In this document: positions 36,387 to 62,352 of the stretch, piece after piece
How positions within the stretch are numbered: the stretch's first letter is position 1
Layout: each line of letters starts with the position of its first letter
Source of the DNA: a virus
Reading direction: 5' to 3' (one strand)
DNA length: 64,000 nucleotides
Virus record (IMG/VR): IMGVR_UViG_3300045988_148355
Location: 58,966-122,965 of that record
Position numbers and translations under genes: made by a program
Notes under the pieces: model-generated
What the model was told of the DNA's origin: nothing
What the model saw: only the letters and a program-made list of their open reading frames with translations
Database searches by the model: none

Positions 36387-36983
36387 CTAATACATAATTT
36401 TTTCTTTAGTATTCCATCCTCCAATATAGTTTGTTGAATGTGTTTCTCCATCATATTCGATTAATTTTTTTACCATATTATCATCATCTAATATAGCAAA
36501 ATCAAATCTTAAATAACCATTTTTAGGAGATAATAAATCAGAAAAAACGTATTTTTTTTTATAACTAATATTATTTTTCTTAAGGATATTTTCTATAATG
36601 TACTCCCCTTGCGATTGTTTCAGGCAACCACAAGACATAGTAGTTTTTTGTTTTAAACTATTTGAAGATACTTCTGTAATTTTTCCACATTCACATTGGC
36701 ATTCCCAAATAATACCTCTTTCTTTAGTCCTTTTTCCGCTATCTTTTAAAACTGTTAATTTACCAAATTTCTAGCCCACTAAATTATTTGAAATTTTTTC
36801 TTTGCGTAAACACCCACAAGATTGAGTTAAACCAGAAACTAAGTTTGCTCTTTGTATACTTTTTATTGTACCACAAGAACATTGACAAATCCAATATTGT
36901 TGTTTGGATTTTCTTTCTGTATCTAATTTCAATACCGTTAATCTATTAAAAATTTGTCCTGTTAAATCTTTCATTAAATTCAT
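36387..36983 (-). CDS. putative homing endonuclease: tandem zinc-ribbon repeats (LTVL...WxCxCxCG...SCGC) plus a PD-(D/E)XK/DUF559-like domain (RFDFAI...IEYDGETH); one in-frame TAG
   Basis: Track ORFs 36771..36983 and 36387..36638 are in the same frame and joined via a TAG. The gap encodes a second copy of the zinc-ribbon motif. Confidence 0.5.
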
Positions 36984-37037
36984 CTCCTCTATTATTTTTA
37001 AATGAATAGGAGAGCATTTTAAGAAAAATTGTCCTTG

Positions 37038-38570
37038 TCAAAAAGCACTTTCTTCTTCAAGAGTAATTTTTATATCATCGATAGGAACAAGTTCATAAGC
37101 ATATGTAGTACAAAACATAGGAATAATTCTACAAGTTCCTAAATCTGCTTTACACCATAAAATAACTCCTTTATATCTACCGCGTCTATTTTTATAAATA
37201 GACATTTTAATAGTTGGAGTATCAAATAATTTTGTGTTTAGTATTTTTTCTAATGAAATTAAGTCATCGTCTTGAACATTTAAAAGAATTGAACCATAAT
37301 CTACTTTATCAGCTATGGATTTTGCTCCACGCAAAAGATTTTGGTCTGGGGTTTTAGAATCAACATAATCACCATTTAATTGAGTTGCTGACATAATAAA
37401 AACGCCATACTGATTACAAATATCTTTTAATTTGTTAGATAGCATAAAAAGTATATTATCTTCACGAAGTTTTACTCCACCGCTACGACGAGTAATTTCT
37501 TCAAGAATTTTCATACTTGTATGAATATAGTCATGAAATATATATTTTACATCATGGTCGCGAATGCCTTTTTTGATTTCATTTTCGACATCCTGCAATG
37601 AAAAATCAGGTAATTCACGAATATACAATGGACTATCTTTAAGAATTTTCGCAGCTTCTATTACTCGTTCTTTTTCATTTCCTTGATATTCATTATAAAT
37701 AATATGTTCTTCATTCACATTAGAAAGAAAAGCAAGCATCATTGTTTGAATTTCATTTTTATCTTGCTCTGTAGTTATATACAATACTGGTTCTTGAATT
37801 CCGTTTTTAATCCAACTTCCAAAAGTATCATCATATATTTTATTACAAGCAATATAGCACGAATCCGCAATCATAGAACGAGTTTTACCTACACCGGTGG
37901 CCGCGGAGCGCAAGTAAAACTTTTTAAGTCTTGCGCCACGAGTAACTGTATTAATTAATGGCCCATATAGAGGACTTCCTGCTATTGGATGTTGCTCTAA
38001 ATCGTCAAGTAATTCAAAAATTCCATCACCTGCTTGAACAGCAACTCCCTCAACGTCATTTACATACTCATATTTAATTTGTTCTACGCGGTCATCAATT
38101 AATTGTGCGATATGTTCTAATGAAGAATTATCAAGATTATCTTCTTGTAATTGTTTTTTTTCAGTATCTAAAATATTATCAGGGTCATAAATAAAAGAAA
38201 CATCAATGCCATATCTATCATAAGCACGAAGTAGAGACATTTTTTTTAAACGACCATAATAATAATCAAATGATAAAGGTTTCGCATTCTCAGAAACTTT
38301 TAATAGCCATTCTTCACCTTTATTGACTTTAAATGTAGCTTCATATTTAGGTCGAGAAGAAAGAAAATCACTAATATTTTCTAAAGTAATTTTCTAAGCT
38401 CCTAATTCATGAATTTTATATATTGCTCCAAAAACAATTCTATGAAATTCATCAGCAAAATCTTCGTCAGTTATTGTATATCTATCAGTAAAATCCAAAA
38501 GCTAAGGAGTATTATATACACACCCTATAACTTGTGTAATTGCTGTTGGATCTACATACTTACTCGGCAT
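37038..38570 (-). CDS. dnaB: replicative DNA helicase (DnaB/T4 gp41 family), ~510 codons, two in-frame TAGs in the N-terminal domain
   Basis: Walker A SAATGVGKTRSM and the IFHDYI and SATQLNG motifs. The track ORF extends upstream through TAGs to an ATG with RBS ggagg. Confidence 0.8.
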
Positions 38571-38580
38571 TTAACTCCTC

Positions 38581-39128
38581 CTATTCATCTAAAAATGTAA
38601 AAACTGATCTTTTTCGAGGTTCTTTTTTAGGAATAGGAATTTTTATTTCCTTTAATTTAGGAACGTAATCAATAATATTTTTATCTTTATTGGATTGTTG
38701 AATCATCCAAAGATTATAATAATAATTGTAAGCGTCTTTATAAATAAAGGGTATAATACCAATTCCACCATTAGCTTTATTTTTATTATTTCCTTTAACC
38801 TCATAAAAATAAACTAAGGCTTTTAACATTCCAGAATATGTATATTGATATTCTTTAATATAGTCATTCATTTGCTTGCGGACGCGAGCGTTAATATATG
38901 ATTCTCCTAATAAATTTTTTACATATTCTTCAAATTTTTCTTTATCTAAATCTTCTTTTGTCTTTACTTTTTCAGGTGGATTATGAACTTGTAAAGGAGT
39001 GTCTTCATTTTCAGCCTATTTAGCACATTCAGGGTGCGCATATCTTCGAGATTTTATTTGAACATAAGGAAACTTATCTCTATCAAAAGTTTGCTGACAA
39101 TAAATACATTTAACTTTATGTATATAAA
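38581..39128 (-). CDS. hypothetical protein with an N-terminal CxxC...HPEC zinc finger; start codon uncertain (no in-frame ATG near the RBS; possible ATA/ATT start)
   Basis: Track ORF 38581..38871 extends upstream through one TAG to a TAA at ~39131. RBS aaaggag is present. Confidence 0.3.
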
Positions 39129-39185
39129 TTACTCCTTTCCATTACTTTATATAAATATTATATAATATTTTTAAATAAAAGTCAA

Positions 39186-39211
39186 ACCGGAGCGACTTTT
39201 ATCACTCCGGT
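39186..39211 (-). terminator. hairpin terminator downstream of the Sak4-like gene
   Basis: Stem ccggag...ctccgg followed by a T-rich run on the - strand. Confidence 0.4.
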
Positions 39212-39228
39212 TATAAATTATATTTTAT

Positions 39229-41319: not shown

Positions 41320-41333
41320 AAATAAATTTCTCC

Positions 41334-42450: not shown

Positions 42451-42729
42451 TCAATCCTCATTACTTAAAGTATATCCACTTAGATTGTGCCCAAGAGAAC
42501 GAACAAAACAATCAAGTTCATCAATAAATACCATACTGCCTTTTGGATAATTTCCATTTATATAGTCATGATATGAAATAAAATTAATTCCAGAAATTCC
42601 GTATCCTTCTGACTTAATTCTCATAGCATTAGGATTAGAACAAGCAATAATAGCATTTTTCTCTTTAGCTAACAGTATTAATCTACTCGTTTTTCCTGTT
42701 CCACGTTTATCAATTATTCTATACATCAT
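42451..42729 (-). CDS. small P-loop NTPase-like protein
   Basis: Motif DKRGTGKTSRL. Confidence 0.3.
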   Translation of the reverse strand: MMYRIIDKRGTGKTSRLILLAKEKNAIIACSNPNAMRIKSEGYGISGINFISYHDYINGNYPKGSMVFIDELDCFVRSLGHNLSGYTLSNED

Positions 42730-43151
42730 TTTATACTATACCCGAATTCCTTAGCTTTAAAATAGTCTTGCCAATAATCTTCTCGCGCATCTAACTCTTC
42801 ACGAGAGCATTCTTCTATTACTTCAAAACTAAAATTTTCTACTCCAATAGCTAACATAGCAGGATAAAGTTTATTGCGAGTGGCGGGTTCTGCACCAATT
42901 CCGCGTTTAATATGTTGTTTCCAACGTGCAGAAAGATCAACTGCTTGACCCACATAACACATTTGATTTTCTAAATTAGTAATTTTATAAATTCCTGTGT
43001 GGATTCCAGAGCCAATTACTCGACCAATTAAATCTGTAGTTGGTTTTTCATAATAACTTTTCCAAATTACTTTATTTAAAATATCTTTATCACGAAGTTT
43101 CGGCTCAATAGAGCGAAGAAGACTGATTTCATCAATATCTATTTGAGGCAA
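42726..43151 (-). CDS. GIY-YIG nuclease domain protein (GIYKITNLENQMCYVGQA...RWKQH); in frame with the upstream coiled-coil ORF across TAG 43152
   Basis: GIY-YIG motifs. TTG start immediately after the TAG. Confidence 0.55.
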   Translation of the reverse strand: MPQIDIDEISLLRSIEPKLRDKDILNKVIWKSYYEKPTTDLIGRVIGSGIHTGIYKITNLENQMCYVGQAVDLSARWKQHIKRGIGAEPATRNKLYPAMLAIGVENFSFEVIEECSREELDAREDYWQDYFKAKEFGYSIK

Positions 43152-43739
43152 CTATAATTTATAGAAATCAGCTTGGTTTTTAATTTCTTCGGCACGTTTC
43201 GCAGCATCAACTGCGGCCGCGACTTCTCTACTATGTAATTGGATTTCTTCATCTAATTTATTTAATTCTTCTTTTTTAGAATCAATTAAATTAGATAATT
43301 CTAAAGAACAATCAACAAGAGTTGATTGATATTCATTTTCATATTCTTCTTTAGCTTTTGTATATTTAAATTCTTGTTTATTTAAATCATATTCAAGACG
43401 AACACGAGCATTTTCCATTGATTGCTGATAGAAAATATCCGCTGATTGCTTTGCTTGATTCTATAAAGAATTTAAACTATTTTCAACTTCGTCTCTTTTG
43501 GACTAAAGAATATTTAAATTATTTTCTACTTCTTCTTTTCTGGAAGTAATACTTTTTACTGCCGTTGATAATATTGTATACTAATCATCTAAATCTGAAT
43601 TTTTATATTCAAGTTCTTTATTTTGTTTTATTATTTCTTCATTAAGCTTTTGAATATTATTTAGTCGTGGACGTAAAATAAAATATATTAAAAATCCACC
43701 AATAATAAACGCCAGTATAGCAATTATTAAAGTAAGCAT
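43152..43739 (-). CDS. membrane-anchored coiled-coil protein (N-terminal TM helix MLTLIIAILAFIIGGFLIYFIL) ending at TAG 43152, in frame with the downstream GIY-YIG domain
   Basis: Track ORF 43152..43418 extends upstream through three TAGs to an ATG at ~43737. No TAA/TGA until the end of the GIY-YIG ORF. Confidence 0.4.
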
Positions 43740-44472: not shown

Positions 44473-45039
44473 TTAAATTAAATAAACTGATGATTGAGGA
44501 ACCAAATCTTCTAATTGTATTTTATCAATAACTGTATAAGGAATTCTGATAATTGGAATATTATTTATCTTACAATAATTATTCCTCATTTTATCTCGTT
44601 CTTTCGTTTTTAAAAAATTATCTCTATTGTTCCAGCCTGTTTTATCATATGAAAAATGCTATCTACCATCAAATTCAATAATATATTTATCATTAACATA
44701 TAAATCAAATTTAATTGGTTTTTTACTTTCTTCATAATAAAAATCATCAAAAGATTTCTCTGAAATATAAGAAATATTATTTTCTTCTAAAATCTTTTTT
44801 ATTTTTGTAATACCTTGAGAATCATGAGAACACAATCCACAACTTTTAGTATTTCCACTTTTAAGGCTAGATCCTCTAATATATTTTAAATTGCCACACT
44901 CACACTAACACAACCAAGTATAACATCCATGATTATCTAATGGGCCCACATCTAAAACAGTTAATTTATCAAAAACTTGATTCCTTAAATCTAATCTTAA
45001 TTTAGTCCCTAATTTTTGAGACTATTTTTTCTTTTCCAT
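44473..45039 (-). CDS. putative homing endonuclease (zinc-ribbon LTVL...WLCQCECG...SCG plus a PD-(D/E)XK/DUF559-like domain FDLYV...IEFDGRQH); three in-frame TAGs
   Basis: Paralog of 36387..36983. Missed by the ORF track because of the TAGs. Confidence 0.5.
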
Positions 45040-45056
45040 AAATAACTACCTTCTTT

Positions 45057-45084
45057 CTCCATAAATATTTAAATATTTATGGAG
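45057..45084 (-). terminator. palindromic hairpin terminator downstream of the ligase
   Basis: Perfect palindrome ctccataaatattt / aaatatttatggag. Confidence 0.45.
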
Positions 45085-45089
45085 AAAAA

Positions 45090-46395: not shown

Positions 46396-48819
46396 TTATA
46401 CCTTAGTTACTGACTTAATCTTACTAGACTTAATAATCTGATTACCAACAGAAATACGTCCAAGAGCAGGAATGTCTTTCGCGGAAACGCAAATAGATGC
46501 TTTATCCCCTGTAATAAGTAGATTATCTTCGTCAGCAATTAGCGCGGTTGCGGTCAATGGACCGGTAGACCCACTCGTTTTATATATATTAAGTCCTTTA
46601 CCACCACGTTTTTGTAAAGTCAATTCATTTAAAGACAACTTCTTTCCTAAGCCATTTTCACTAAATACTGCGATAGAATCAGTGTCATGTCGAATTGGCA
46701 TAGTAGAAATTACTTCATCACCTTCATTAAGATTAATACCTTTAACTCCAGCAGTAGCACGAGAGGTCGCAGTAATGTCTGTGGAATTAAATTTAATTCC
46801 CATACCATTTTTAGTTGTTAATACAATAGGCTCATCTTTAATTAAACACACAGAGGCTAAGCTATCACTTTCGCGCAAATTAATTGCGACAATACCAGTC
46901 TTTTTCTTCGTATTAATATACTCTTCCAGAGCAGTCTTTTTTACAAGCCCATTCTTAGTGGTAAATAATACATATTTAGCATCAGTATCTCTATAAATTG
47001 AATACATTGTTTCAGGACTTTCATCAGGAGCCATATTTACAAGACTCTTAATAGATTGACCTTGTGAACTATTTGTTCCTACTGGAATATTATCAACTAA
47101 AAGACGATACATTACACCTTTATTTGAGAAAATCATTAAAGAATCAATAGTATTAGTTCTTAAAACACAAGAGGTAATATCTTCTTGAGATTTAATACCT
47201 TTACCATTTTTCTTTTGCGTGCGATAGGAAGCTGTCGGAATACGCTTAATTGTTCCGCCTTCAGTCATTACAACAACGCACTTCTCAGGTTCAACATATT
47301 CAATTTCTTTATCTTCTTTTTCCACTGGAGCTTGAATGATTTTAGTAATACGTGCATCACCATAAGTATTTTTAATAGTAATGAAAATCTTTTCAAGTTC
47401 ATCAGTGGAATCTTTAAGAATTAAAGCTAAACGCTCACTCTCTTTAATTAAATTATCTCTTTCCTCTTGGATTTCAACTTTTTCTAAACGAGCTAATCTA
47501 CTTAATTTAATATCAAGAATTGCTTTAGCTTGATCTTCATCTAACTTATATTGAGTCATTAAAGCTTGACGAGCAACAATGGCGCTTTCGCTCTTTTTAA
47601 TAAGAGCAATTACGTTATCAATATCTTCAAGTGCTTTAAGAATACCATTTAAAATATGAATACGAGCTTGTGCTTTATCATATTCATATTTTGTTTTTCT
47701 TAATATTACATCTTTTTGATGACTAATATAAATTTCAATAAGTTGTTTAAGATTTAAAAGTTTTGGTTTCTTATTAACAAGAGCAACTTGATTAAAACTA
47801 TATGTTTCTTCAAGACGAGATAATTTATAAAGTTTAGAAATGATAGGTTGAGCACTAACGCCCTTATCAAGTTCAATTACAAAACGCACTCCATCTTTAG
47901 TGCTTTCATCTCTAATGGCAACAATACCATTTAATTTACCCTCTTCACAAAGTTTATCAATATCTTCACAAAGAGTATCTTTTGAAACTTTATAAGGAAT
48001 TGTAGTAAATACAATTAAATCATGTGTTTTTTCATGCTCAATTACATAATCAGCCCTCATACGAGCTCGACCCTTACCAGTTAAATAAGCAGTCTTTAAT
48101 TCATCTTTATTAATAACAGTTCCACCAGTAGGGAAATCAGGGCCTTGAACAAATTGAAGCAAATCTTCAACTTTACACTCGCTATTGCGCAAAGTGTAAA
48201 TAATTGCATCCATAATTTCAGTTAAATTATGTGGAGCAAAAGAACAAGCCATAGCGACTGCAATACCAGTAGTGCCATTTACAAGAAGATGCGGAATTCG
48301 GCCCGGCAAATATACTGGTTCATTTTCAACATCAGTATAAGCTAATTGCCAATCACAAGTATTCTTTTTAATGTCAGCAAGCATTTCTTCGCCAACTTTA
48401 GATAATTTACATTCAGTATAACGATATGCTGCTGGCTCTCCACCATCACGACTACCATTATTGCCATGGAATGAAATTAATGGATAACGCATCGTCCAAG
48501 GTTGGCTTAAAAGACATAAAGCTCCATAAATAGAACTATCGCCGTGAGGATGAAAACGACCCATTGCATCACCGACAGGCTGAGCGCACTTAACAAACTT
48601 CTTATTATTAAAGTATCCTTTATCGAACATATCATAAAGAATACGTCTTGCAACTGGTTTTAATCCATCTTCTGCAGATGGAATTGCTCTATCAGTTATT
48701 ACACTTAAAGAGTAATCCAGGAAGGATTGCTCCACTTCATTAACTATTGGAGTTTTTAGAATCTCTCCCATATTTTTTAAGGACCTCCTCAGCTGTAATT
48801 TTTCCAGTGGCAAGACCAT
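46396..48819 (-). CDS. type II topoisomerase subunit A (GyrA/ParC/T4 gp52-like)
   Basis: Motifs EDGLKPVARRILY and HPHGD. Active-site Tyr region AAYRYTE. Confidence 0.85.
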   Translation of the reverse strand: MVLPLEKLQLRRSLKNMGEILKTPIVNEVEQSFLDYSLSVITDRAIPSAEDGLKPVARRILYDMFDKGYFNNKKFVKCAQPVGDAMGRFHPHGDSSIYGALCLLSQPWTMRYPLISFHGNNGSRDGGEPAAYRYTECKLSKVGEEMLADIKKNTCDWQLAYTDVENEPVYLPGRIPHLLVNGTTGIAVAMACSFAPHNLTEIMDAIIYTLRNSECKVEDLLQFVQGPDFPTGGTVINKDELKTAYLTGKGRARMRADYVIEHEKTHDLIVFTTIPYKVSKDTLCEDIDKLCEEGKLNGIVAIRDESTKDGVRFVIELDKGVSAQPIISKLYKLSRLEETYSFNQVALVNKKPKLLNLKQLIEIYISHQKDVILRKTKYEYDKAQARIHILNGILKALEDIDNVIALIKKSESAIVARQALMTQYKLDEDQAKAILDIKLSRLARLEKVEIQEERDNLIKESERLALILKDSTDELEKIFITIKNTYGDARITKIIQAPVEKEDKEIEYVEPEKCVVVMTEGGTIKRIPTASYRTQKKNGKGIKSQEDITSCVLRTNTIDSLMIFSNKGVMYRLLVDNIPVGTNSSQGQSIKSLVNMAPDESPETMYSIYRDTDAKYVLFTTKNGLVKKTALEEYINTKKKTGIVAINLRESDSLASVCLIKDEPIVLTTKNGMGIKFNSTDITATSRATAGVKGINLNEGDEVISTMPIRHDTDSIAVFSENGLGKKLSLNELTLQKRGGKGLNIYKTSGSTGPLTATALIADEDNLLITGDKASICVSAKDIPALGRISVGNQIIKSSKIKSVTKV

Positions 48820-49264
48820 CTGCTAATTCATTCCACAAATGGCCATCGTGCCCGGAAATTTTTCTTAAATCAATTTTAACTTCTTTTTCTGTTTCATAAT
48901 AATCTTTAATTAAATCAAGATTTTCTGGAGCTTTTTTATTAGATTTAATCCAATTATTACGTTCCCATCCATACATCCAATTAGTAAAAGTATTTACACA
49001 ATAGGCTGAATCACTATATACAGTAGGGATATCATTAGTCCATTCTCCATTGTCATGCTTGCCATATTTTTTCAATACATGAAGAATAGCTTTAATTTCT
49101 TCGCGGTTATTGGTAGTATCTTCAAAAGCGTTTATTTGACAAGCATCAATTACAACACCGTTTTCAGGATTGCTATCATATTCAATAACAACAAACCCAT
49201 AACCACCGCTATTATTTATTTGTCCGTTTTTACGACACGAACCGTCCGTATAAATTGCTATCAT
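48740..49264 (-). CDS. rnh: ribonuclease H
   Basis: Motifs IYTDGSC, YSDSAY and GHDGH..NELAD. The 3' end overlaps the annotated topo A start. Confidence 0.7.
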   Translation of the reverse strand: MIAIYTDGSCRKNGQINNSGGYGFVVIEYDSNPENGVVIDACQINAFEDTTNNREEIKAILHVLKKYGKHDNGEWTNDIPTVYSDSAYCVNTFTNWMYGWERNNWIKSNKKAPENLDLIKDYYETEKEVKIDLRKISGHDGHLWNELADGLATGKITAEEVLKKYGRDSKNSNS

Positions 49265-49362
49265 TATTTTTTATACCATATTTTATTAAATCCACTTAAA
49301 GAATAGATATTTTTATAATCATTATATACATCTAATCTTTTTTCTTTATTTTCTTTTCTTCG

Positions 49363-49950
49363 CTAAATTTCTATCCAAATTTCTTGTTGATTAGAACTAA
49401 TTTGACTTTTTCTAGCAAAACTTCTTACTTTAGATAAATATTCTTTTGATTTAACATATTCTATAGCTTCAGGACATATATCTATCCAACTGTCGCCCTT
49501 CCAAATATGTTTAAATCCTGATAAAGAAATTTTTTTACTATATAAAGGATAAACTTCAGACAACATTTTCCCCTAAAGTAATAAAGTTCTAATGTTTTGG
49601 ACTTCTTGTTCAGTTAAAGAAGAATTTGGATTTTTCTCTCCAGGTAAAGAAGGCCCTCCTTCTCCCCCTTTAGTTTCATTATAACCATTATTATAAGAAC
49701 CATAATATTCAATCCAATATTTCTCACGTTCAAATAATTTTTCTTTTGAAGTTAATTCAATTATTTCAAAAGAAAAATTATCAATTCCATATTTTCGGAA
49801 TGCTTTATGAATACTATAATTATACTAAGGATTTTTTTCTAATATTGATTCTGATTTATGAGAAATCCATCTACGTTCTATATTAACAGAACATCCTATA
49901 TAAATTTTTTTATTTATATTATTAGTTATTTTATAAATACCACAGCTCAT
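49363..49950 (-). CDS. GIY-YIG homing endonuclease with two in-frame TAGs
   Basis: N-terminus MSCGIYKITNNINKKIYIGCS...RRWISH. Track ORF 49363..49566 is its C-terminal DNA-binding part. Paralogous to 50785..51300. Confidence 0.6.
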
Positions 49951-49993
49951 ATTCTATTCACCTCATAAGAATATGAAATTATGAATGATTGCC

Positions 49994-50311
49994 TTAACAA
50001 AATTTGTCCGGGCAATCATGTGATGGCCTCCCTAAAAATTCATTTTCTCCACAATCAATATGAAAAGAAGTATTAGTAAAAATAGTAATTTTATCAATAA
50101 AATAATCGTTAATAATATTTACTTTATTATCTGGAAATAACTTTTGTAATTGCTCATGGAGGTCTCTACAAGTAATTATATCAATATCTTTATTAACATG
50201 AGCTAAAATAACGTCATCTTTACGAATAGGAATTATTTCAATAGGTGTTCCTTTATAATTACTTACATATCCCTTATCAGTTTTATACATCAATATTGGC
50301 CCTTTCTGCAT
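49994..50311 (-). CDS. hypothetical protein
   Basis: Track ORF. Confidence 0.25.
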   Translation of the reverse strand: MQKGPILMYKTDKGYVSNYKGTPIEIIPIRKDDVILAHVNKDIDIITCRDLHEQLQKLFPDNKVNIINDYFIDKITIFTNTSFHIDCGENEFLGRPSHDCPDKFC

Positions 50312-50495
50312 TTAATTCAATGAAAGATTTACGAGGGCCAACTGATTCACCCATTAAATCCATAAATGTTTTATTTACAAGATTCATATCATCCATTGTA
50401 ATCTGTTTTAAGGTGCGAGTTTCTGGATTCATAACCAATTCCATTTCATGAGTATCCATTTCACCTACATGTTTCTCCAATATTACTATTGGCAC
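50283..50495 (-). CDS. hypothetical protein (overlaps the previous ORF by 29 nt in a different frame)
   Basis: Track ORF. Confidence 0.25.
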   Translation of the reverse strand: MPIVILEKHVGEMDTHEMELVMNPETRTLKQITMDDMNLVNKTFMDLMGESVGPRKSFIELNAERANIDV

Positions 50496-50784
50496 TGACT
50501 ATTTCTTCGCTCCGGCTAACGTATTAACTGCCATCATCACGCCTACCTTTTTGAAAGTATGTATCAATAATACTTCCTACTCCCCGACAAAGGGGATAGT
50601 CGATACAGGATTAAACTACGATATTTTTCCAATTCTAATAACTCCATATATTTGTAAAAGAACCATATGTAAGTTTATTAGAATAATCTTTATAAACTTC
50701 TCTTATATTTTCTCCATTTTTACGACGTAATCTTATTTGATAAACATCTTGCTCAGTCATTTTAGAACGTCCATTTTTACTTCC

Positions 50785-51300
50785 CTAATTAGAAGTATTA
50801 TGTTTATGAAAATTTTTATTTTCAATACTATACACTTCTGGCATGATATTTTTCCAAGTATCACCATTCCAAATTTTATGGAAACCAGACTCACCAATTA
50901 AATTTTTATAATCTTCATAAACCTCATTTTTTCTTTCTTGATTATTATAGCGAGTTCTAATATCAATAACATCTTGCTTAGTTAACTTATGACTCGGATG
51001 GCTTTCTTCAGCATTAAATTGTCCTCCAGGAGTCATATTATACTAATCAGGATAAGTATTATAATACTTTATATAATACTATTCTTTATCATTAAGCTCT
51101 TCTATAGAACATTCTTCCAATATTTCAAAAGAAAAATTATCTATTCCATATTCTAATATGTCTTTATATAACTTTTTATTTTTTTCTCTATACCAGTTAT
51201 ATGATTTTTTATGTTCTCTAAAACGCTATTCTATTTGTGTGCTTTGTCCTATATAAGATAAGTTATTTATTTTATTGGTTATTTTGTAAATACCAATCAT
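50785..51300 (-). CDS. GIY-YIG homing endonuclease with three in-frame TAGs
   Basis: Reverse-strand translation reads MIGIYKITNKINNLSYIGQSTQIE-TAG-RFREH...DKE-TAG-YYIKYYNTYPD-TAG-YNMTPGG. The TAGs sit at positions occupied by polar residues in paralogs. Confidence 0.6.
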
Positions 51301-51451
51301 TTTAATTACCTCACTAATTATAAGTAAGATAATATCGCAGTTCTTCCCACGAGATTATCTCCACTAATATTTAACGCTTATTCATTTCAATTTTTCCTGA
51401 AATGTCCTAAATATTAGCAAGACTGCCTCGTTAGCCGCCAACTGGAAAATT

Positions 51452-53266
51452 TTACCAATTCGCGACCCCGCCGATCAGCGGAAAAGTAGGTAAGGGCCAG
51501 ACTTTCTCGTACCCTTTCATACGTCCTAATTCAAAGTTTTTGCTTTTCATAGTTTTTCTGAATGTTTCAAGAGCGACGTCATCTTTAAGATATTTAATAT
51601 TTGTGCCCCAAGTCGCTTTATAAAGAGGTGGAACCGCAGCATAAATATAACCTTTTTCAATTAATTCAGGTGCAAATTTCCAAATAAATGTAAGAAATAG
51701 AATACGAATATGGCTACCATCAACATCAGCATCCGCTGTGATAATAATCTTACCATAACGTAATTTAGATTCGTCCACAATTACTTTACCATCTTTAACC
51801 TCAAGACCAAAAGCATCAATCATCGCACTAATTTCTTTATTTCCTAATGCTTTATGCAAATCTGTTTTTAAAGTATTAAGGATTTTACCTCTTACAGGCA
51901 AAACTGCTTGTGTATTACGGTTACGAGCTTCTTTAGTAGGGCCTTCCGCGGAACGGCCTTCAACAATAAAAATTTCACATTCGCTTCTATTTTTACTATT
52001 GGCATCACTTAGTGTGCCGGGTAGAATGGTTCTTTTCTTTGTATCAACTTTACGAACGGTTTCTTTAGCCTTTTTCGCTTTTTCGCGTGCCGCACGCGCC
52101 AGCATTGCCTTATCTACAATAGCTTTAGCATCTTTTGGATTATTGTCGAGCCAAACTTTTAAATCTTTTGAGACAAGACGTTGAACAATAGTTCTTGCTT
52201 CACTACTGGATAAAACATCTTTGGTTTGACCAGAGAAAACCGGATCAGGCATAATAAATGAAAGAACAAGACTTAATCCTTCTTTAAGTTCTTCACCAGT
52301 GATATTAGCATCTTTCTCTTTTAAAAGACCTTTATCACGAGCATATTCATTAATAGAAGTAGTAAGTGCTGTTCTAAAACCGGTTAGATGTGTTCCACCA
52401 CTATTAGGAATTGAATTAGTATAAAGTTTATAAGTATCGCTATAGGTATCATTATATTCCATAGCAATTTTTACACCAATTCTATCTTCAATATTTTCAG
52501 TATAAAAAATTGAAGTAAGAGAAGTTTTATTGCTATTTAAATCTTTAATATAATCAAGAATACCATTTTTTGAAGTAATCTCTTCTTCTGGCTTATCAAG
52601 ATAAGTAAAATGAAATACCATACCAGGAGAAAGATAAGCTAATTCTTGAATTTGTTTTCTTAAAGCATCATAATCAAGAAGAATACCTTCTTTAAAAATA
52701 CTTTCATCTGGCAAAAATTTAACCCAAGTTCCAGTCTCTTTACCAGTCCATTTTTCTTCTTGATAATCTTTTAATTTTCCTTTTTCAAAAGATGCAACTG
52801 CGTGTTTACCATCACGGAAAGACGCTACTTGAAAATAACGAGAAAGAGCGTTAGTGGCTTTAGCGCCAACGCCATTCATACCACCAGATGTATTATATCC
52901 AGTTTTTCCGTTGCTATCAAATTTTGCACCGGTATGTAGTTTTGTATAAATATTTACCAATGTTTCACTACCGTCTTTAGCTTTTCCAAAAGGAACACCA
53001 CGTCCATTGTCGCGGATTTCAACATAACCATCTTTAGATACTGAAATATCGCAACGAGTACAATGACCATTTAAATATTCATCAACCGCGTTTGAAATAA
53101 TTTCAAGAGTAATATGTTTAACTCCATCGGGTCCAGTAGAACCGATAAACATACCAGGTCTAAGACGAATTGCCTCCATCCCTTCTAAAGTTTTTATATC
53201 TTTAATACCATAATCATCTTTTCCTCTTTTGAGGATAATTTCTTGACTCAATCTAAATACCTCCAA
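51452..53266 (-). CDS. type II topoisomerase subunit B (GyrB/ParE/T4 gp39-like: GHKL ATPase plus TOPRIM)
   Basis: Motif EGRSAEG. ATP-lid segment GGMNGVGAKATN. Confidence 0.85.
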   Translation of the reverse strand: MEVFRLSQEIILKRGKDDYGIKDIKTLEGMEAIRLRPGMFIGSTGPDGVKHITLEIISNAVDEYLNGHCTRCDISVSKDGYVEIRDNGRGVPFGKAKDGSETLVNIYTKLHTGAKFDSNGKTGYNTSGGMNGVGAKATNALSRYFQVASFRDGKHAVASFEKGKLKDYQEEKWTGKETGTWVKFLPDESIFKEGILLDYDALRKQIQELAYLSPGMVFHFTYLDKPEEEITSKNGILDYIKDLNSNKTSLTSIFYTENIEDRIGVKIAMEYNDTYSDTYKLYTNSIPNSGGTHLTGFRTALTTSINEYARDKGLLKEKDANITGEELKEGLSLVLSFIMPDPVFSGQTKDVLSSSEARTIVQRLVSKDLKVWLDNNPKDAKAIVDKAMLARAAREKAKKAKETVRKVDTKKRTILPGTLSDANSKNRSECEIFIVEGRSAEGPTKEARNRNTQAVLPVRGKILNTLKTDLHKALGNKEISAMIDAFGLEVKDGKVIVDESKLRYGKIIITADADVDGSHIRILFLTFIWKFAPELIEKGYIYAAVPPLYKATWGTNIKYLKDDVALETFRKTMKSKNFELGRMKGYEKVWPLPTFPLIGGVANW

Positions 53267-53269
53267 ATA

Positions 53270-53997
53270 TAATTTTTATGGGTATTTCTTTTACCTCTAC
53301 AAACAGCGGATATAGTAGAAGAATTTCCTTCACAAAATTGTGCTGCTAATTGTAAACTATCGAATTCTTTTATAAGATTATTATTTTTATCAAATGCTCC
53401 TACTTTACGGCTTGTTTTTATTATTCTATTAGACTAAATTTGATTAGTCTTTTTTTCAGGTTCAATAATTTGATTTTCTTCATCTAAAAATCTAAATACT
53501 CTATTTCCTGTAGTTAGTCTAATCCCATTACATACGTTACTAATTTTAAATCTATCTAAATTAGTCTATTCTCCTGCGTCAGCCAATGAATTCCAAATAT
53601 TTAAAATATTTTTATTTTTATCAATTTCACAAACTTTTTTTCCATATTTTTTTCTTTTTGTATCACTCATTTTTGAAGCAATTTTAGGATCAAACATAGG
53701 ACTTTCTGTATTATCAGTCTAATTATAGCCTTTTGGAAAAATACAGTCTTCTTTAATAATATAATCATGCTCTATTTTAATCATATCTTCCCAATTTTTA
53801 GCATTACTAATAATTTCAAATGTAAAATTATTTATCCCGTATTCACGGAAATCTTGCATCAGTGGATAATTATAACGATGATCTTTCGGATTTTTAGAAG
53901 CTCCAATATGATGTCTCCAACGTCTATGCACATCAATCGAAGAACCAATATATATTTTGTTATTTATTTTATTAGTAATTTTATAAATTTGATACAT
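53270..53997 (-). CDS. GIY-YIG homing endonuclease with three or four in-frame TAGs; 3' end overlaps the topo B start
   Basis: Track ORF 53719..53997 (MYQIYKITNKINNKIYIGSS...RRWRHH) continues through TAGs to a TGA at ~53270. Confidence 0.55.
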
Positions 53998-54069
53998 AGA
54001 AATTCACAACCTTTCTATTATATCTTAAAATTTATTTAGACATTTTTTACATTCCTGTCCCATTCCTGG

Positions 54070-54294
54070 TCAACCGCACTCATATTCATTATAAACAATT
54101 TTTTCAAAATCTTCTTTAGAGATTTCGGGTAAAGTATATAAATAACCATTAGCTTTATCATTATAATAAAATAAAAAACTATTATAATCATGATTTTCTA
54201 ATGCTTTTTCGATACTATTAATTACTGTTGGAATATAATCTCTAGAAAGATGGTCATACCAATAATAAACGATACCTTCAGTTGTCGTTGCCAT
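54070..54294 (-). CDS. hypothetical protein
   Basis: Track ORF. Confidence 0.3.
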   Translation of the reverse strand: MATTTEGIVYYWYDHLSRDYIPTVINSIEKALENHDYNSFLFYYNDKANGYLYTLPEISKEDFEKIVYNEYECG

Positions 54295-55574: not shown

Positions 55575-56878
55575 TTACACCAATCCTTTATCTTTCATAA
55601 TTCTATAAAGAACTACAATCATTTCTTCACGAGTCATAAATTTTTTATACATTTTACGATTTAAATTATCGCCTTTAATATATCCTTTGCTTTCAGCCCA
55701 AGTTCTTTCCGTATCAGACCAAGAACTTGCGTTTTTTTCAGCTTGTTGATTTAAATAAACTTCCATCATTTCATTAAATTTATCCTAAGTCATATCGTCT
55801 TCATCCTCCTCATTAATATTTATATTATCACCAATTTTTTGTTTAAATAGCTACCATTGGTAATCGCCACTTGTTTTATAATAACTATTCATATCAGTTC
55901 CGCACAACGGACGAGGGCATAATTTACCAGTTACGTCATAGTGACGAATAACACGATTCGCAGGTATATTGTATTTCTACATTAATTGCTTTACTAATTG
56001 TACTGTATTTTCTAATGCTCTTGGATCGAAATACCAATCAGTATCACTGGCTACAATATTAGATTTATTTATTTTACAGGGTCTTACTTCAATTCCAATA
56101 GAATTAGCATTTCTACATTCAGGATGTTTATATCCTTTTCTTGTGCCGCAGTGCCAAGCAATATCTTCATCTTTAACACTACGATAAATAATATCTTTTT
56201 CATCAACACAATAATGGGCTGATGATTTAGCGACAGGATTTTTAAAATAATTACTAATATTTTTTGCCGTTCCCAAAGAACCAAAATAATGTATTACAAT
56301 ATATTTTATTTTTCTATTATTGCCTTTTTGATAATTAGATGTTGTTAAATTATCTACAATTTTCATATCTTCACCTTTTCCTATAAATTGGTCATATATT
56401 TCAACCCCATAATATAATCTCTACTATTGGATTTTTAAACTCTAATCTTTTGGTCGTTCAAACTATGTTAAAACTATATTTGAAGCAGTCTATATATCTT
56501 TACAATTTATTAAAGTATTCCAAACGGTAGGATAATATGTAGAAAGTTGATAAATTAAAAATTCAAGTTGTGTATTTAAGTTTCCTATTGAAGTATTTTT
56601 CTTTTTTGTAAAATCATATAATTGTTTTTTAAGACTCCAATAAGTCCATTGAGCTAAACCATATCCAACTTTATCATAAATGAAATTAGTATATTTACCA
56701 TTATCTACTTGTTTTGTATACTATTCATCATTTAATCCAAGTGTTTTTTCAAAACTATTTTGAAGATTTTTTGGATTAAAATTTGATTCAGCTTTTAAGT
56801 TTCCCATTAGCCCGGCTGTTCCATAAGGATTTTTTATTTGTTTATACAAATAATTCCAAGTTATTTCAATGTTAGTCA
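55575..56878 (-). CDS. three-domain endolysin: phage-tail-lysozyme-like N-domain, Amidase_2/PGRP N-acetylmuramoyl-L-alanine amidase, C-terminal SLH-like cell-wall-binding module; about five in-frame TAGs
   Basis: Track ORFs 55977..56366 and 55575..55769 lie in the same frame. Amidase motifs IVIHYFGS, HYCVD, AWHCG and HYDVTGKLCP. SLH-like segment SWSDTERTWAESKGYIKGD...TREEMIVVLYRI. Confidence 0.65.
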
Positions 56879-56898
56879 TATTATCCTCCTTTCTATAA

Positions 56899-59113: not shown

Positions 59114-59117
59114 TAAA

Positions 59118-60503: not shown

Positions 60504-60805
60504 AAATAATTCTCCTTATTTATTTAATTTTAAATTTTATACTTATATTTGAATAATGCTTCAATAGCATCATCAATCGAATTATAGTATCCATTGTGTT
60601 CAAATTCTCCATCTTCATCCCATAAGAAAGAGATTTCTACACCTAATGGACCTTGTTCCAATTTTTCTTTTACTTCTTTGTAAATTGCTTCTTCCATTTA
60701 TCTTGTTATTAATTTTTCCCAATCTTCATAGGACCATTTTTCCAGTAATGAGTTTTTTTGTTAAATCATTACCTTTATAATCATAAAGTGCCATTTAGTT
60801 TTTCC

Positions 60806-61366
60806 TCATTCATCAAGGAATGATTTACATTCCTCAACTTTGGCTTTCATAGCATCAATGATTACATCAAGATTAATGGGATATCCATGGTGAGAATCAA
60901 CACCTACATGATACATATAAGGTCGATCTTCAAAGAAATTAGTAGTTTGATGAGTATGACCGTAAAGATTCAAAGTCATTTGATGAAGATTTTCTCTTTC
61001 AAGATTACCAGTCATACAAGGGAAATGGGTCATAAAGAAATGGTATTTACGATAATTTAGCATAATTGCCCAGTCCATTTCAACAACATTAGGCAAATCC
61101 GCGTAAAGCTTCTGCCGAGTCGTTGTATCATGATTGCCAAATACAATATGGAATTTACCCTTAAGACGTTTAACATATTCAATATTAGAAGGGTCTCCAA
61201 GCATTAGATCACCAAGAATATAAACGTCATCTTCATCAGAAATGATGCTATTCCATTTCTCGATGTAATCTTCATTCATTTCTTTAATTGAAGAATAACC
61301 ACGAGCTTTCCAAATAAATTCTCGATCATGTCCAAAGTGCATATCACTGGTTAAAAAGATTGCCAT
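60806..61366 (-). CDS. calcineurin-like metallophosphoesterase
   Basis: Motifs SDMHFGH, GDL and GNHD. Confidence 0.65.
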   Translation of the reverse strand: MAIFLTSDMHFGHDREFIWKARGYSSIKEMNEDYIEKWNSIISDEDDVYILGDLMLGDPSNIEYVKRLKGKFHIVFGNHDTTTRQKLYADLPNVVEMDWAIMLNYRKYHFFMTHFPCMTGNLERENLHQMTLNLYGHTHQTTNFFEDRPYMYHVGVDSHHGYPINLDVIIDAMKAKVEECKSFLDE

Positions 61367-61870
61367 GTATGAATCACTTCTCCTTTTTCGTTAACCTCTT
61401 GGATAAGGTTATATTTAATATATTCTTTAAAAGTGGGAGGAGTAAAAGAATTTGCCATACTCCGAATCACTTCTTCTGGAACCTGTGCTCGACCATCACG
61501 CTGTTTATTGCGCTCAATACAAACTTCAACAGGAACATTAAAATAAATAACATTCACGTTAAGATTTGTATATCCTTTTGCGTTAATTGCTTTGAGAAGT
61601 TTCTTGCGGGAGCCGGGTCCAAGATGCGTGGCATCCGCATATACATCATCATAGTCTCTTAAAGAAAGAGTAATTGCTTCAACAAAAGCATGCCATACAC
61701 TTTCCTCTTTGGCAAAATAACTTTCATCATCATTTAACATTTGAAAACGAATTGCATCACGAGAAACAATACAACCACATTGAGGCCAACGGTTTTTAAG
61801 CCAAGTGGATTTACCCGAGCCGAGACTAAGGAATACCAGACATAATCCAAAGATTCTTTCTAGTATTCAT
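61351..61870 (-). pseudogene. polynucleotide-kinase-like P-loop kinase, interrupted at Walker A by a 7-nt TAG-containing insert (needs a +1 frameshift or is inactivated)
   Basis: Frame A reads MNTRKNLWIMSGIP-TAG-SRLG-TAA. Frame B reads LSLGSGKSTWLK...FQ and joins track ORF 61351..61740. Deleting tagtctc would restore GIPGSGKST. Confidence 0.45.
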
Positions 61871-62352
61871 TTAATCATCCCCTTTCTTTTCTTTGCTATG
61901 AATTTCTCTATGACAATTAGCACATACTAATTGACATTTATCTAATTCTTTTTTAATAACTTGCCAATCTAAAATTAAATTTCTATCACTTAAATTAAAA
62001 TCTTTTTCTTGAGGATCTAAGTGATGAAAATCAAGTACTTCAGAACATTTATTATATCCGCAAATCTCACATTTATTTCCTTTATATTCTAAGGCCCATT
62101 TTTTTATTAATGCTCTTTGTCCTGCTCCAGATTTCGGCACTAATGGAACACATTCATAACAATATCTTCTATTATAAGCATTTTCTTTTGCTATAAATTT
62201 TTTTCCACATTTAGCACAAATTTTTTCAGAAATATTTATGCCTTGACTTCGACGCAATCTTGAAGCTTTCGCCTAACAAGATTGAGAACAATATTTAGTG
62301 TCTCTACGGGATCCCTCAAACTCTTTACCACAATGCTAACAAACTAATTTCA
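61871..62352 (-). CDS. HNH endonuclease with N-terminal zinc ribbons; two in-frame TAGs in the N-terminal extension
   Basis: C-terminal HNH region DFHHLDP...NL..LCANCH. The track ORF extends upstream through TAGs to an ATG at ~62350. Confidence 0.55.

What the first reader, a model, noticed from the sequence alone, without database searches (positions are those of the whole stretch)
36387..62352. Swarm of seven putative homing endonuclease genes in the replication module, themselves TAG-recoded
Four GIY-YIG genes (42726, 49363, 50785, 53270), two zinc-ribbon plus PD-(D/E)XK/DUF559-like genes (36387, 44473) and one HNH gene (61871) lie within ~26 kb. Three of the GIY-YIG genes sit between or next to the topo II subunit genes, the classic T4-like HEG hotspot. 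Several carry in-frame TAGs, so they have been resident in the recoded lineage or coevolved with it; they are not recent arrivals from standard-code phages. The 49363 and 50785 genes are close paralogs (FHKIWNGDTWKNI versus FKHIWKGDSWIDI).
Basis: partly seen in the sequence, partly recalled or inferred. Interest (0 to 1): 0.6.

Follow-up and report, generated by a model that had tools for sequence, protein, structure and literature searches.

The report
Homing-endonuclease swarm plus gyrB intron
The replication genes of this TAG-recoded human-gut phage carry six independently mobile homing-endonuclease cassettes, one of them inside a self-splicing group I intron that splits the gyrase B gene. 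This is a dense, well-documented example of a known kind of selfish DNA, not a new kind.

Summary
All seven genes exist on the minus strand and carry the stated nuclease domains: four GIY-YIG, two zinc-ribbon plus Vsr-like PD-(D/E)XK, and one HNH. All have 2-5 in-frame TAGs.

Comparison with about 170 related IMG/VR phage loci shows that six of the seven are discrete cassettes of 568-1062 nt. Each is present or absent among relatives that are 98-99% identical, in a different combination in each genome.

The evidence is a U·G pair at the splice site within P1, a terminal G, 19 of 57 base pairs with compensatory changes, ORF-less copies in two relatives, and a co-conversion signature in the flanking exons.

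The seventh gene (42726-43739; transmembrane helix, coiled coil, C-terminal GIY-YIG) is conserved full-length in nearly all relatives. It is a core gene, not a mobile endonuclease.

The six mobile endonuclease genes are about 6-fold richer in TAG than their replication-gene neighbours, matching late-gene usage. This fits the delayed-translation idea already published for recoded phages. Verdict: a new member of a known kind, moderate interest.

The parts
36279..36983 (-). ZnPD1: free-standing homing endonuclease gene with two CxCxC..C..C zinc ribbons and a Vsr-like PD-(D/E)XK domain. 234 aa, 2 TAG. Its cassette is 36284-37039, placed directly after the dnaB stop codon.
   Evidence: Pfam DUF2726 at 27.9 bits. 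PHROG 374/559/9084. The 756-nt cassette corresponds to 1 nt in L070-72 and L081. It is present in L074, L075 and L145 at 98-99% and in L084/L087 at 79%.
42726..43739 (-). Transmembrane helix, coiled coil and C-terminal GIY-YIG domain. 337 aa, 4 TAG. This is a conserved core gene, NOT a mobile endonuclease.
   Evidence: GIY-YIG at residues 249-329. Full-length orthologues occur in nearly all loci at 43-98% identity. The C-terminal ~150 aa are strongly conserved, and no DNA-binding module was found.
44473..45039 (-). ZnPD2: free-standing endonuclease gene with one zinc ribbon and a Vsr-like PD-(D/E)XK domain. 188 aa, 3 TAG. Its cassette is 44478-45126 and includes the last 12 codons of the ligase gene.
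46396..48771 (-). gyrA-type topoisomerase II A subunit (791 aa). Landmark gene.
   Evidence: Pfam DNA_topoisoIV and DNA_gyraseA_C. A 791-aa gene call on ENA contigs.
49264..49950 (-). GIY49: free-standing GIY-YIG endonuclease gene between the RNase H gene and orf105. 228 aa, 3 TAG. Its cassette is 49265-50011.
   Evidence: Pfam GIY-YIG and TIGR01453 at 81.9 bits. The 747-nt cassette corresponds to 6 nt in relatives. It is present in L001 and L012 (97-98%) and in L026 (69%).
50283..50467 (-). gyrB exon 2. It starts TA GGT GAA ATG and encodes (L)GEM...ANIDV*.
   Evidence: Sequence. The spliced 617-aa product hits DNA_gyraseB_C across the junction.
50468..51510 (-). Group I intron, 1043 nt, in gyrB at KGL|GEM. 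The helix order is P1, P3, two extra hairpins, P4/P5, P6 (which closes the endonuclease ORF), P7, P7.1, P7.2, P8, P9 (GNRA loop) and a terminal G.
   Evidence: The 5' splice site follows a U that pairs with a G of the internal guide sequence GCCCUU. The intron ends in G. 57 pairs are 99.5% paired, with 19 carrying double changes against 0-3 in slid controls. Rfam Intron_gpI gives 23.4 bits, E 4.8e-4, on the ORF-less copy. The model built here gives 169 bits for this site only. The intron is absent from 10 relatives with 98-99% identical gyrB.
50611..51300 (-). Intron-encoded I-TevI-like GIY-YIG homing endonuclease, looped out of P6. 229 aa, 5 TAG.
   Evidence: Pfam, TIGR01453 and PDB 1MK0. The ORF is intact in 16 intron copies and deleted in 2. 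dN/dS is 0.05-0.32. The last codons of the ORF form the 3' strand of P6, with compensatory changes.
51511..53266 (-). gyrB exon 1. It has a TTG start at 53266 with a GGAGG ribosome-binding site lying inside the 3' end of the upstream endonuclease gene, and it ends ...AAA GGG T.
53248..53997 (-). GIY53: free-standing GIY-YIG plus NUMOD endonuclease gene. 249 aa, 3 TAG. Its cassette is 53220-54281, inserted after codon 4 of the ancestral gyrB.
   Evidence: Pfam GIY-YIG, I-HmuI_NUMOD-like and TIGR01453 at 90.4 bits. The 1062-nt cassette corresponds to 7 nt in relatives. It is present in L009 and L051 (96%), with 62-63% homologues at the same site in L033, L036-39 and L064.
54070..54294 (-). orf74: a chimeric ORF that keeps the ancestral gyrB ribosome-binding site, ATG and first four codons (MATT) and then reads into cassette DNA. 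It travels with GIY53.
   Evidence: Alignment of the window with L008/L003. It co-occurs only with GIY53 in L009 and L051. No family hit.
61871..62353 (-). Free-standing HNH endonuclease gene with N-terminal zinc ribbons. 160 aa, 2 TAG. Its cassette is 61860-62427.
   Evidence: PHROG 2255 at E 7.6e-30. Pfam HNH is below threshold. The 568-nt cassette corresponds to 23-28 nt in L001, 2, 4, 5, 44 and 60. It is present at 95-98% in L150-152.

Best explanation
Window 36-62 kb is the replication module of a ~190-kb human-gut phage that reads TAG as a sense codon, most likely Gln. The module has been colonised by six independent homing-endonuclease cassettes.

Five cassettes are free-standing genes in or at the edges of intergenic spacers:
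- ZnPD1, directly after dnaB.
- ZnPD2, directly after the ligase gene.
- GIY49, between orf105 and the RNase H gene.
- GIY53 with orf74, inside the first codons of gyrB, which it supplies with a new TTG start.
- An HNH gene near 62 kb.

The sixth cassette is an I-TevI-like GIY-YIG gene looped out of P6 of a group I intron that interrupts gyrB at the conserved KGL|GEM motif.

Inferred mechanism:
- The intron self-splices from the gyrB mRNA. P1 forms between the exon end AAGGGU and the guide sequence GCCCUU, attack follows the U, and the terminal G is used for exon ligation. This restores a 617-aa GyrB.
- In mixed infections, each endonuclease cuts the cassette-less allele of a related phage. 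Repair then copies the cassette together with adjacent exon or gene-end sequence.
- The endonuclease ORFs are TAG-rich like late genes, while their replication neighbours are almost TAG-free. Their translation is therefore probably delayed until the phage's TAG-decoding machinery is active.

The seventh gene (42726-43739) is a vertically inherited membrane-anchored GIY-YIG protein of unknown role and is not part of the swarm.

Shown here: domains, cassette boundaries, presence/absence polymorphism, intron structure covariation, exon signature and TAG bias. Inferred: splicing, cleavage, homing and timing.
For: - Recoding. ORF content rises from 51.9 to 69.1 kb when TAG is read through. Q is the commonest sense residue opposite window TAGs in relatives. 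TAG and CAA swap at 6 of 11 positions in the intron endonuclease, and every true stop there is TAA.
- Domains.
- Cassettes. Each is a 568-1062-nt insertion corresponding to 0-28 nt in relatives whose flanking genes are 98-100% identical. Each relative carries a different subset.
- Intron junction. The exact junction gives KGLGEM, and a Pfam DNA_gyraseB_C hit spans it.
- Intron structure. P1 covaries between exon and guide sequence: AAAGGGU with GCCCUU versus AAGGGGU with GCCCCU. 99.5% of 790 cells are paired, with 19 pairs carrying double changes against 0-3 in slid controls. P6 closes the ORF with compensatory changes.
- Intron family. ORF-less copies of 287 and 263 nt sit at the same site in L015 and L065. 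Intron_gpI is the top Rfam hit at E 4.8e-4. The same ribozyme core lies at 22 other places in relatives, all on the coding strand.
- Exon signature. Intron-bearing alleles read CGT ATG AAA GGG T|TA GG, while intron-less close relatives read CGA ATG AAR GGT C|TT GG.
- TAG bias. 18 TAGs in 1288 endonuclease codons versus 17 in 7077 neighbour codons, Fisher p 7e-7. The TAG share of Gln-type codons is 31% in the endonuclease genes, 32% in late genes and 8% in replication genes.
- Purifying selection on the intron endonuclease: dN/dS 0.05-0.32.
Against: - No splicing or cleavage was observed; everything is comparative.
- Rfam's group I model scores below its gathering threshold (23.4 vs 50 bits). 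It found nothing at default sensitivity.
- The helix order is atypical. Two hairpins lie between P3 and P4, and there is no P2 between P1 and P3.
- P4, P5 and P7 are invariant, so they give no covariation evidence.
- No suppressor tRNA is present in the window.
- The TAG richness of the endonuclease genes could reflect only their lower GC (25% vs 34%) and relaxed selection, not a timing function.
- Presence/absence polymorphism does not show that the endonucleases are active today.
Confidence: 0.85

Rival explanations
1. One reading: all seven genes are free-standing mobile homing endonucleases sitting between genes, as at the T4 topoisomerase hotspot.
For: All seven carry nuclease domains that match endonuclease families. 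Six are polymorphic.
Against: 42726-43739 is full-length in nearly all relatives down to 43% identity and has no DNA-binding module. 50611-51300 lies inside a structured intron within gyrB. The topoisomerase is gyrase type, not T4 type.
Confidence: 0.08
2. gyrB is a truly split gene, like T4 genes 39/60 separated by mobA. The N-terminal 604-aa and C-terminal ~60-aa parts would be made as separate polypeptides, or the insert would need trans-acting factors, and the intervening DNA would not be a self-splicing intron.
For: Rfam's Intron_gpI model is below threshold. The exon-1 reading frame runs 19 codons into the insert before a stop. The helix order is unusual.
Against: - The insert has a U·G pair at the splice site within P1 and a terminal G in 18 of 18 copies.
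- Compensatory changes occur in P1, P3, P6, P7.1, P7.2, P8 and P9.
- No start codon or ribosome-binding site precedes the GEM... fragment.
- ORF-less copies of 263-287 nt retain the whole conserved core.
Confidence: 0.06
3. The in-frame TAGs are real stops, so the endonuclease genes are decaying pseudogenes in a standard-code phage.
For: The window has no tRNA. Under the standard code the genes break into fragments of 50-140 aa.
Against: - Homology to paralogues and orthologues continues in frame across every TAG.
- TAG alternates with CAA at the same codons.
- dN/dS is 0.05-0.32 over the full ORF.
- Essential late genes carry up to 33 TAGs.
- Read-through adds 17 kb of ORF.
Confidence: 0.02
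4. The cassettes are not merely selfish. They are kept because they act as weapons or marker-exclusion devices against co-infecting related gut phages. TAG gating would tune their expression to the time when competitor genomes are replicating.
For: - Many near-identical strains with different endonuclease sets co-occur in the same metagenome, 3300045988.
- The endonucleases are under purifying selection.
- Their TAG usage is like that of late genes.
- A phage intron endonuclease has been shown to mediate interference competition (PMC11620839, seen).
- The delayed-translation idea has been published for Agate phages (10.1101/2021.08.26.457843).
Against: There is no functional data here. ORF-less introns (L015, L065) show that endonucleases are also lost, as in a purely selfish invasion-decay cycle. 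This reading is compatible with the best explanation, not exclusive of it.
Confidence: 0.3

Closest known systems
Phage T4 td intron with I-TevI (subgroup IA group I intron encoding a GIY-YIG homing endonuclease)
   Same: - The GIY-YIG catalytic domain matches I-TevI (PDB 1MK0).
- The ORF is looped out of a peripheral helix (P6).
- P7.1/P7.2-type extra hairpins lie between P7 and P3'.
- The intron sits at a highly conserved motif of a DNA-metabolism gene.
- The intron is present or absent among close relatives.
   Different: - The host gene is gyrB (KGL|GEM), not td.
- Two hairpins lie between P3 and P4, and there is no P2 after P1.
- The intron is below threshold in Rfam.
- The ORF contains five sense TAG codons.
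- The C-terminal half consists of two '..GF.KIW.G..W..I' repeats, not the I-TevI zinc finger and helix-turn-helix.
T4-like free-standing homing endonucleases (seg GIY-YIG and mob HNH genes, including mobA between topoisomerase genes 39 and 60). From my own knowledge of the T4 literature, not tested here.
   Same: Intergenic GIY-YIG and HNH genes cluster in the replication and nucleotide-metabolism region. They vary between related phages and sit next to topoisomerase II subunit genes.
   Different: The topoisomerase here is bacterial GyrA/GyrB type. One cassette (GIY53) lands inside the gyrB coding start and replaces its N-terminus and start codon. All the genes are TAG-recoded.
I-Bth0305I / Vsr-like (EDxHD) PD-(D/E)XK homing endonucleases
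   Different: The genes are free-standing, not in an intron or intein. One or two N-terminal CxCxC..C..C zinc ribbons serve as the putative DNA-binding module. There is no PDB sequence match, and the family is mostly unannotated (474 homologues).
Recoded group I intron endonuclease in an early gene of TGA-recoded 'Agate' gut phages (Borges et al., bioRxiv 10.1101/2021.08.26.457843)
   Same: An intron-encoded endonuclease lies inside an early gene and is preferentially rich in the reassigned stop codon. The same delayed-translation logic applies.
   Different: Here the reassigned codon is TAG, read as Gln, not TGA read as Trp. The bias extends to five free-standing endonuclease genes as well.

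Membership tests
Group I intron | The 5' splice site follows a U that forms a U·G wobble in P1 with an internal guide sequence. | tested here: met
   Exon AAGGGU pairs with intron GCCCUU. U·G is present in 14 of 14 sequences, and the neighbouring pair covaries A-U to G-C in 4 sequences.
Group I intron | The intron ends in G, and excision restores the reading frame precisely. | tested here: met
   All 18 copies end in G before TAGGNGARATG. The spliced product reads KGLGEM, and DNA_gyraseB_C spans the junction. Intron-less relatives are collinear.
Group I intron | A conserved core with the P3/P7 pseudoknot, the P4-P6 domain, P8 and P9. | tested here: met
   57 pairs are 99.5% paired. Double changes occur in P3 (3 pairs), P7.1 (3), P7.2 (3), P8 (4) and P9 (3), against 0-3 in slid controls. 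P6 covaries. Caveats: P4, P5 and P7 are invariant, and two hairpins lie between P3 and P4.
Group I intron | A match to the curated covariance model (Rfam RF00028) at its gathering score. | tested here: not met
   No hit at gathering or at E<=10 with the ORF in place. On the ORF-less copy it is the top hit, at 23.4 bits against a gathering score of 50, E 4.8e-4.
Group I intron | Guanosine-dependent self-splicing. | not testable with these tools
   Needs in-vitro transcription and splicing, or RNA-seq junction reads.
GIY-YIG homing endonucleases (I-TevI / TIGR01453) | An N-terminal GIY-YIG catalytic domain. | tested here: met
   PF01541 at 35-39 bits (gathering score 22.6) and TIGR01453 at 80-90 bits (cut-off 56) for 49264, 50611 and 53248. 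PDB 1MK0.
GIY-YIG homing endonucleases (I-TevI / TIGR01453) | A C-terminal DNA-binding module. | tested here: inconclusive
   53248 has I-HmuI NUMOD-like at 29.3 bits, above its gathering score of 27. 49264 and 50611 have two unclassified repeats that match the TIGR01453 and PHROG 7168 profiles over their full length.
GIY-YIG homing endonucleases (I-TevI / TIGR01453) | Sporadic presence at a fixed site among close relatives (mobility). | tested here: met
   for 49264, 50611 and 53248.
GIY-YIG homing endonucleases, applied to 42726-43739 | Sporadic distribution and a DNA-binding module. | tested here: not met
   The gene is full-length in nearly all relatives. The GIY-YIG domain is C-terminal, behind a transmembrane helix and a coiled coil, and no DNA-binding domain was found. 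It is therefore not filed as a homing endonuclease.
PD-(D/E)XK (Vsr-like / EDxHD) homing endonucleases | A restriction-endonuclease-like fold with conserved acidic and His residues. | tested here: met
HNH homing endonucleases | A ββα-metal HNH motif. | tested here: inconclusive
   The motif DFHH...N...CANCH is present. PHROG HNH families match at E 7.6e-30, but Pfam HNH scores 16.7 bits, below its gathering score of 21.4. Mobility is met.
TAG-to-Gln recoded phage (genetic code 15) | TAG is read through within conserved genes and corresponds to Gln in homologues. | tested here: met
TAG-to-Gln recoded phage (genetic code 15) | A phage-encoded suppressor tRNA(CUA) or release-factor manipulation. 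| tested here: not met
   The 64-kb window has no tRNA. The rest of the ~190-kb genome was not available.

The most novel reading that the evidence does not exclude
In this family of TAG-recoded human-gut phages, reassigned TAG codons act as a built-in translational timer for a whole arsenal of homing endonucleases embedded in otherwise TAG-free early genes. The arsenal comprises intron-borne and free-standing genes of three nuclease folds. These endonucleases, together with a family of atypical group I introns that has colonised at least gyrB (three or more sites), dnaB and other replication genes, would drive strain-level competition and mosaicism among co-circulating phages. A conserved membrane-anchored GIY-YIG protein (42726-43739) may be a domesticated descendant of such an endonuclease with a new function.
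Probability: 0.3. Interest if true: 0.6.

Novelty: new member of a known kind. Interest (0 to 1): 0.45.

Why it matters
The locus gives a clean natural experiment. Dozens of 98-99% identical gut-phage genomes differ almost only in which of six endonuclease cassettes they carry. Homing sites, co-conversion tracts and invasion-decay cycles can therefore be read directly from metagenomes.

It extends the published idea that stop-codon reassignment delays endonuclease translation. The earlier case was one TGA-recoded intron endonuclease; here it covers a set of TAG-recoded intron-borne and free-standing endonucleases.

It also shows that automated annotation of such phages will mis-call gyrB as two fragments and miss a group I intron family that Rfam does not detect at default thresholds.

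It does not reveal a new class of element.

Tried and rejected
- Rfam scans at gathering score on the window, at E<=10 on 50400-51600 and at E<=0.1 on five loci found nothing. Only a narrow scan of the ORF-less copy gave a sub-threshold Intron_gpI hit.
- Megablast of 25 kb against GenBank phages found no match. The best protein-level GyrB hit is 43% identical, so no cultured relative is available.
- I considered a second intron at the gyrB 5' end carrying GIY53, and rejected it. Only 28 nt follow the ORF. The region upstream of the endonuclease gene is orf74 plus an AT-rich spacer. The intron model R1 finds nothing there. gyrB has its own ribosome-binding site and TTG start.
- An alternative P3 (GGCUAAC with GUUAGCC) was rejected. 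It is broken without compensation in 5 of 14 sequences and is absent in the L056 type.
- The split-gene reading of gyrB (T4 39/60-like) was rejected; see the rival explanations.
- A PDB sequence search with ZnPD1 found no hit.
- PADLOC gave only weak endonuclease and UzuA hits for 42726 and nothing for ZnPD2 or the HNH gene.
- A literature search for phage gyrB group I introns found only incidental co-mentions.

Full report
**Setting.** The window is about 30% GC. From about 19 kb to 64 kb the genes lie on the minus strand. Reading TAG as sense raises the length of ORFs of at least 100 aa from 51.9 to 69.1 kb and merges fragments into full-length genes.

Region 20-64 kb is a replication and nucleotide-metabolism module. 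It encodes:
- DnaE-type polymerase, dUTPase and guanylate kinase;
- a RecJ-like protein and a putative primase, both assigned by eye without a domain search;
- DnaB, an AAA_24 ATPase and an ATP-dependent ligase;
- GyrA, RNase H, GyrB and PhoH.

Exact copies of the ligase gene occur on human-gut metagenome contigs. GenBank phages hold no DNA-level relative, and the best GyrB match there is 43% identical. IMG/VR holds many relatives of up to about 197 kb.

**The observation.** All seven ORFs exist and carry the claimed domains.
- The four GIY-YIG genes pass Pfam and TIGR01453 thresholds. The 50611 protein aligns to the I-TevI catalytic domain.
- The two zinc-ribbon proteins are 39% identical. 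One hits DUF2726.
- The HNH gene matches PHROG HNH families at E 7.6e-30 but is below threshold in Pfam.
- All seven carry 2-5 in-frame TAGs.
The true stops are at 36279, 49264, 50611 and 53248, and homology to paralogues continues past the TAGs.
- The two 'close paralogs' are 38% identical.

**Mobility test.** I fetched 69 loci around gyrB, 80 around dnaB and 19 around the HNH gene from IMG/VR. I compared them by tblastn and blastn. In relatives whose flanking genes are 98-100% identical, six discrete window segments are each replaced by 0-28 nt:

| Window segment | Length | Content | Present in | Absent from |
|---|---|---|---|---|
| 36284-37039 | 756 nt | ZnPD1 | 3 of 12 close relatives; 2 at 79% | the other 9 close relatives |
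| 44478-45126 | 649 nt | ZnPD2 | L060, L010 | other close relatives |
| 49265-50011 | 747 nt | GIY49 | L001, L012; L026 at 69% | other close relatives |
| 50468-51510 | 1043 nt | intron with endonuclease gene | see below | see below |
| 53220-54281 | 1062 nt | GIY53 and orf74 | L009, L051; 62-63% homologues at the same site in six distant loci | other close relatives |
| 61860-62427 | 568 nt | HNH | L150-152 | six close relatives |

No relative carries the same combination, and the window carries all six.

**The seventh gene.** 42726-43739 behaves differently. It is full-length (residues 1-337) in almost every locus that reaches it, at 43-57% identity where GyrB is 61-83% identical. Its C-terminal 150 residues are very strongly conserved. 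It consists of an N-terminal hydrophobic helix, a divergent coiled coil and a C-terminal GIY-YIG domain. It has no recognisable DNA-binding module. It is a core gene of this phage family, not a member of the swarm.

**The gyrB intron: junction.** The GyrB reading frame stops 19 codons after ...GRMKG. The missing C-terminal tail (GEMDTHEM...ANIDV) lies about 1 kb downstream in another frame. Joining 51511 to 50467 gives ...AAA GGG T|TA GGT GAA ATG..., which reads KGLGEM. The product is a 617-aa protein whose DNA_gyraseB_C domain spans the junction.

**The gyrB intron: structure.**
- The 1043-nt insert begins after a U and ends in G.
- Exon AAGGGU pairs with GCCCUU 13 nt into the insert, placing the U·G wobble at the splice site.
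- When the exon Lys codon is AAG instead of AAA, the guide sequence changes from T to C.
- On an alignment of 14 distinct copies with the ORF loop removed, I specified 57 pairs including the P3/P7 pseudoknot. They are 99.5% paired, and 19 pairs carry changes on both sides. Slid controls give 0-3 such pairs, and 0 of 500 shuffles reach the observed value.
- P6 is a long-range helix that closes the endonuclease ORF. Its 3' strand is formed by the last codons of the ORF, and it also covaries.
- P9 carries a GNRA loop.
- Two relatives keep the core but have lost the ORF: L015 (287 nt) and L065 (263 nt).

**The gyrB intron: model searches.** Rfam finds nothing at normal sensitivity. On the ORF-less copy, Intron_gpI is the top hit at 23.4 bits, E 4.8e-4, below the gathering score of 50. 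A covariance model of the 3' half built here finds exactly one copy in the window at 169 bits; the next best hit scores 13 bits. It finds 39 copies in the 168 loci, all on the coding strand. Twenty-two of them lie at sites not used for training. These include other positions in gyrB, dnaB of L145 and the 42726 homologue of L009.

**The gyrB intron: distribution and exon signature.** The intron is present in L006-9, L015, L028/29/43, L045-47, L056-59/69 and L065. It is absent from ten relatives with 98-99% identical gyrB. All intron-bearing alleles read CGT ATG AAR GGG T|TA GGN. Intron-less close relatives read CGA ATG AAR GGT C|TT GGA. This synonymous signature is expected from co-conversion and from target-site differences.

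I conclude that this is a group I intron of the phage IA type (P7.1/P7.2 present). One oddity remains unexplained: two hairpins lie between P3 and P4, and there is no P2.

**The GIY53 cassette.** In cassette-less relatives, gyrB starts AAGGAGGAATCT(A/G)-ATG GCA ACG ACA ATT AAT TTA GAT TCT TAT GGA... In the window the same ribosome-binding site, ATG and first four codons now head orf74 (MATT-TEGIV...). gyrB restarts from a TTG at 53266, preceded by GGAGG inside the last codons of the endonuclease gene, and so has a different N-terminal decapeptide. orf74 co-occurs only with this endonuclease gene. I considered an intron here and rejected it (and the anatomy).

**TAG usage.**
- The six mobile endonuclease genes contain 18 TAGs in 1288 codons. 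The 28 other minus-strand genes of 34-64 kb contain 17 in 7077 codons, nine of them in one lysin-like gene. The odds ratio is 5.9, with p 7e-7.
- Counting Gln-type codons as CAA/CAG/TAG, the endonuclease genes have 40/0/18, the plus-strand late genes 109/19/60 and the replication neighbours 148/50/17.
- In relatives, Q is the commonest sense residue opposite window TAGs.
- In the intron endonuclease, TAG and CAA alternate at 6 of 11 positions across lineages, while all true stops are TAA. dN/dS is 0.05-0.32.

Their late-gene-like TAG load fits delayed translation. Borges et al. proposed this for a TGA-recoded intron endonuclease in Agate phages (10.1101/2021.08.26.457843). The endonuclease genes are also much more AT-rich than their neighbours (25% vs 34% GC), so a purely mutational explanation is not excluded.

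**Comparison and verdict.** The closest known systems are:
- T4 td/I-TevI;
- the T4 seg and mob free-standing endonucleases, including mobA at the topoisomerase genes (my knowledge, not tested here);
- I-Bth0305I-type PD-(D/E)XK endonucleases;
- the recoded Agate intron endonuclease.

The differences from these systems are the gyrase-type host genes, the gyrB KGL|GEM insertion site, the atypical intron periphery, the cassette that rewrites the gyrB start, and TAG recoding of the whole set. None of this is a new category. It is a rich new instance of known mobile elements, with a useful correction (six endonucleases rather than seven, one of them intron-borne). A side observation is a conserved membrane-anchored GIY-YIG protein. 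Interest is moderate.

Noticed in passing
window 42726-43739 (-): A protein with a transmembrane helix, a coiled coil and a C-terminal GIY-YIG domain is conserved in essentially all relatives. The last ~150 aa are highly conserved and the coiled coil is divergent. The usual GYN Asn is Ser. The function is unknown; it may be a domesticated endonuclease-type nuclease. In L009 its homologue is itself interrupted after residue 268 by an intron-like insert.
   Followed up: partly
L145 7036-8069 (dnaB of IMG/VR 3300045988_117464); L065 2776-4825; L053/L054; L068 11473-11775: The same intron family occupies other sites in relatives. These are dnaB after residue ~345 (with a GIY-YIG ORF), three separate insertions in one gyrB (L065), and gyrB residue ~488 (L053/54 with an ORF, L068 ORF-less). 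The window's dnaB and the rest of its gyrB are uninterrupted.
   Followed up: partly
window 54070-54294 (-): orf74 begins with the ancestral gyrB ribosome-binding site, ATG and MATT codons and then reads into cassette DNA. It is a chimeric ORF created by the insertion of the GIY53 cassette. It has no TAG and no family hit.
   Followed up: yes
window 45090-46304 (-), especially 45372-45536 and 45090-45126: The DNA ligase is unusually variable among otherwise 98-99% identical relatives (81-97% aa identity). It has a divergent internal block, and its last 12 codons belong to the ZnPD2 cassette. This suggests recombination or co-conversion next to the endonuclease site.
   Followed up: partly
window 51497-51380 (-), intron hairpins A and B: Two covariation-supported hairpins lie between P3 and P4 of the intron, where group I introns normally have a 3-nt J3/4. 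An invariant GGCUAAC before P4 is complementary to the P8 loop but does not covary.
   Followed up: partly
window 55575-56879 (-): A lysin-like gene (434 aa) embedded in the minus-strand module carries 9 TAGs, the highest load among non-endonuclease genes here. This is in line with published enrichment of recoded stops in lysis genes.
   Followed up: no
window 3244-10944 (+): A 2566-aa ORF with 33 in-frame TAGs on the plus strand, presumably a late or structural gene. It was not characterised.
   Followed up: no
window 42451-42729 (-): A 92-aa ORF that is missing or divergent in L004 and L006 (window gaps 42467-42682 and 42479-42725). It is a further small polymorphic segment with no nuclease signature.
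   Followed up: no
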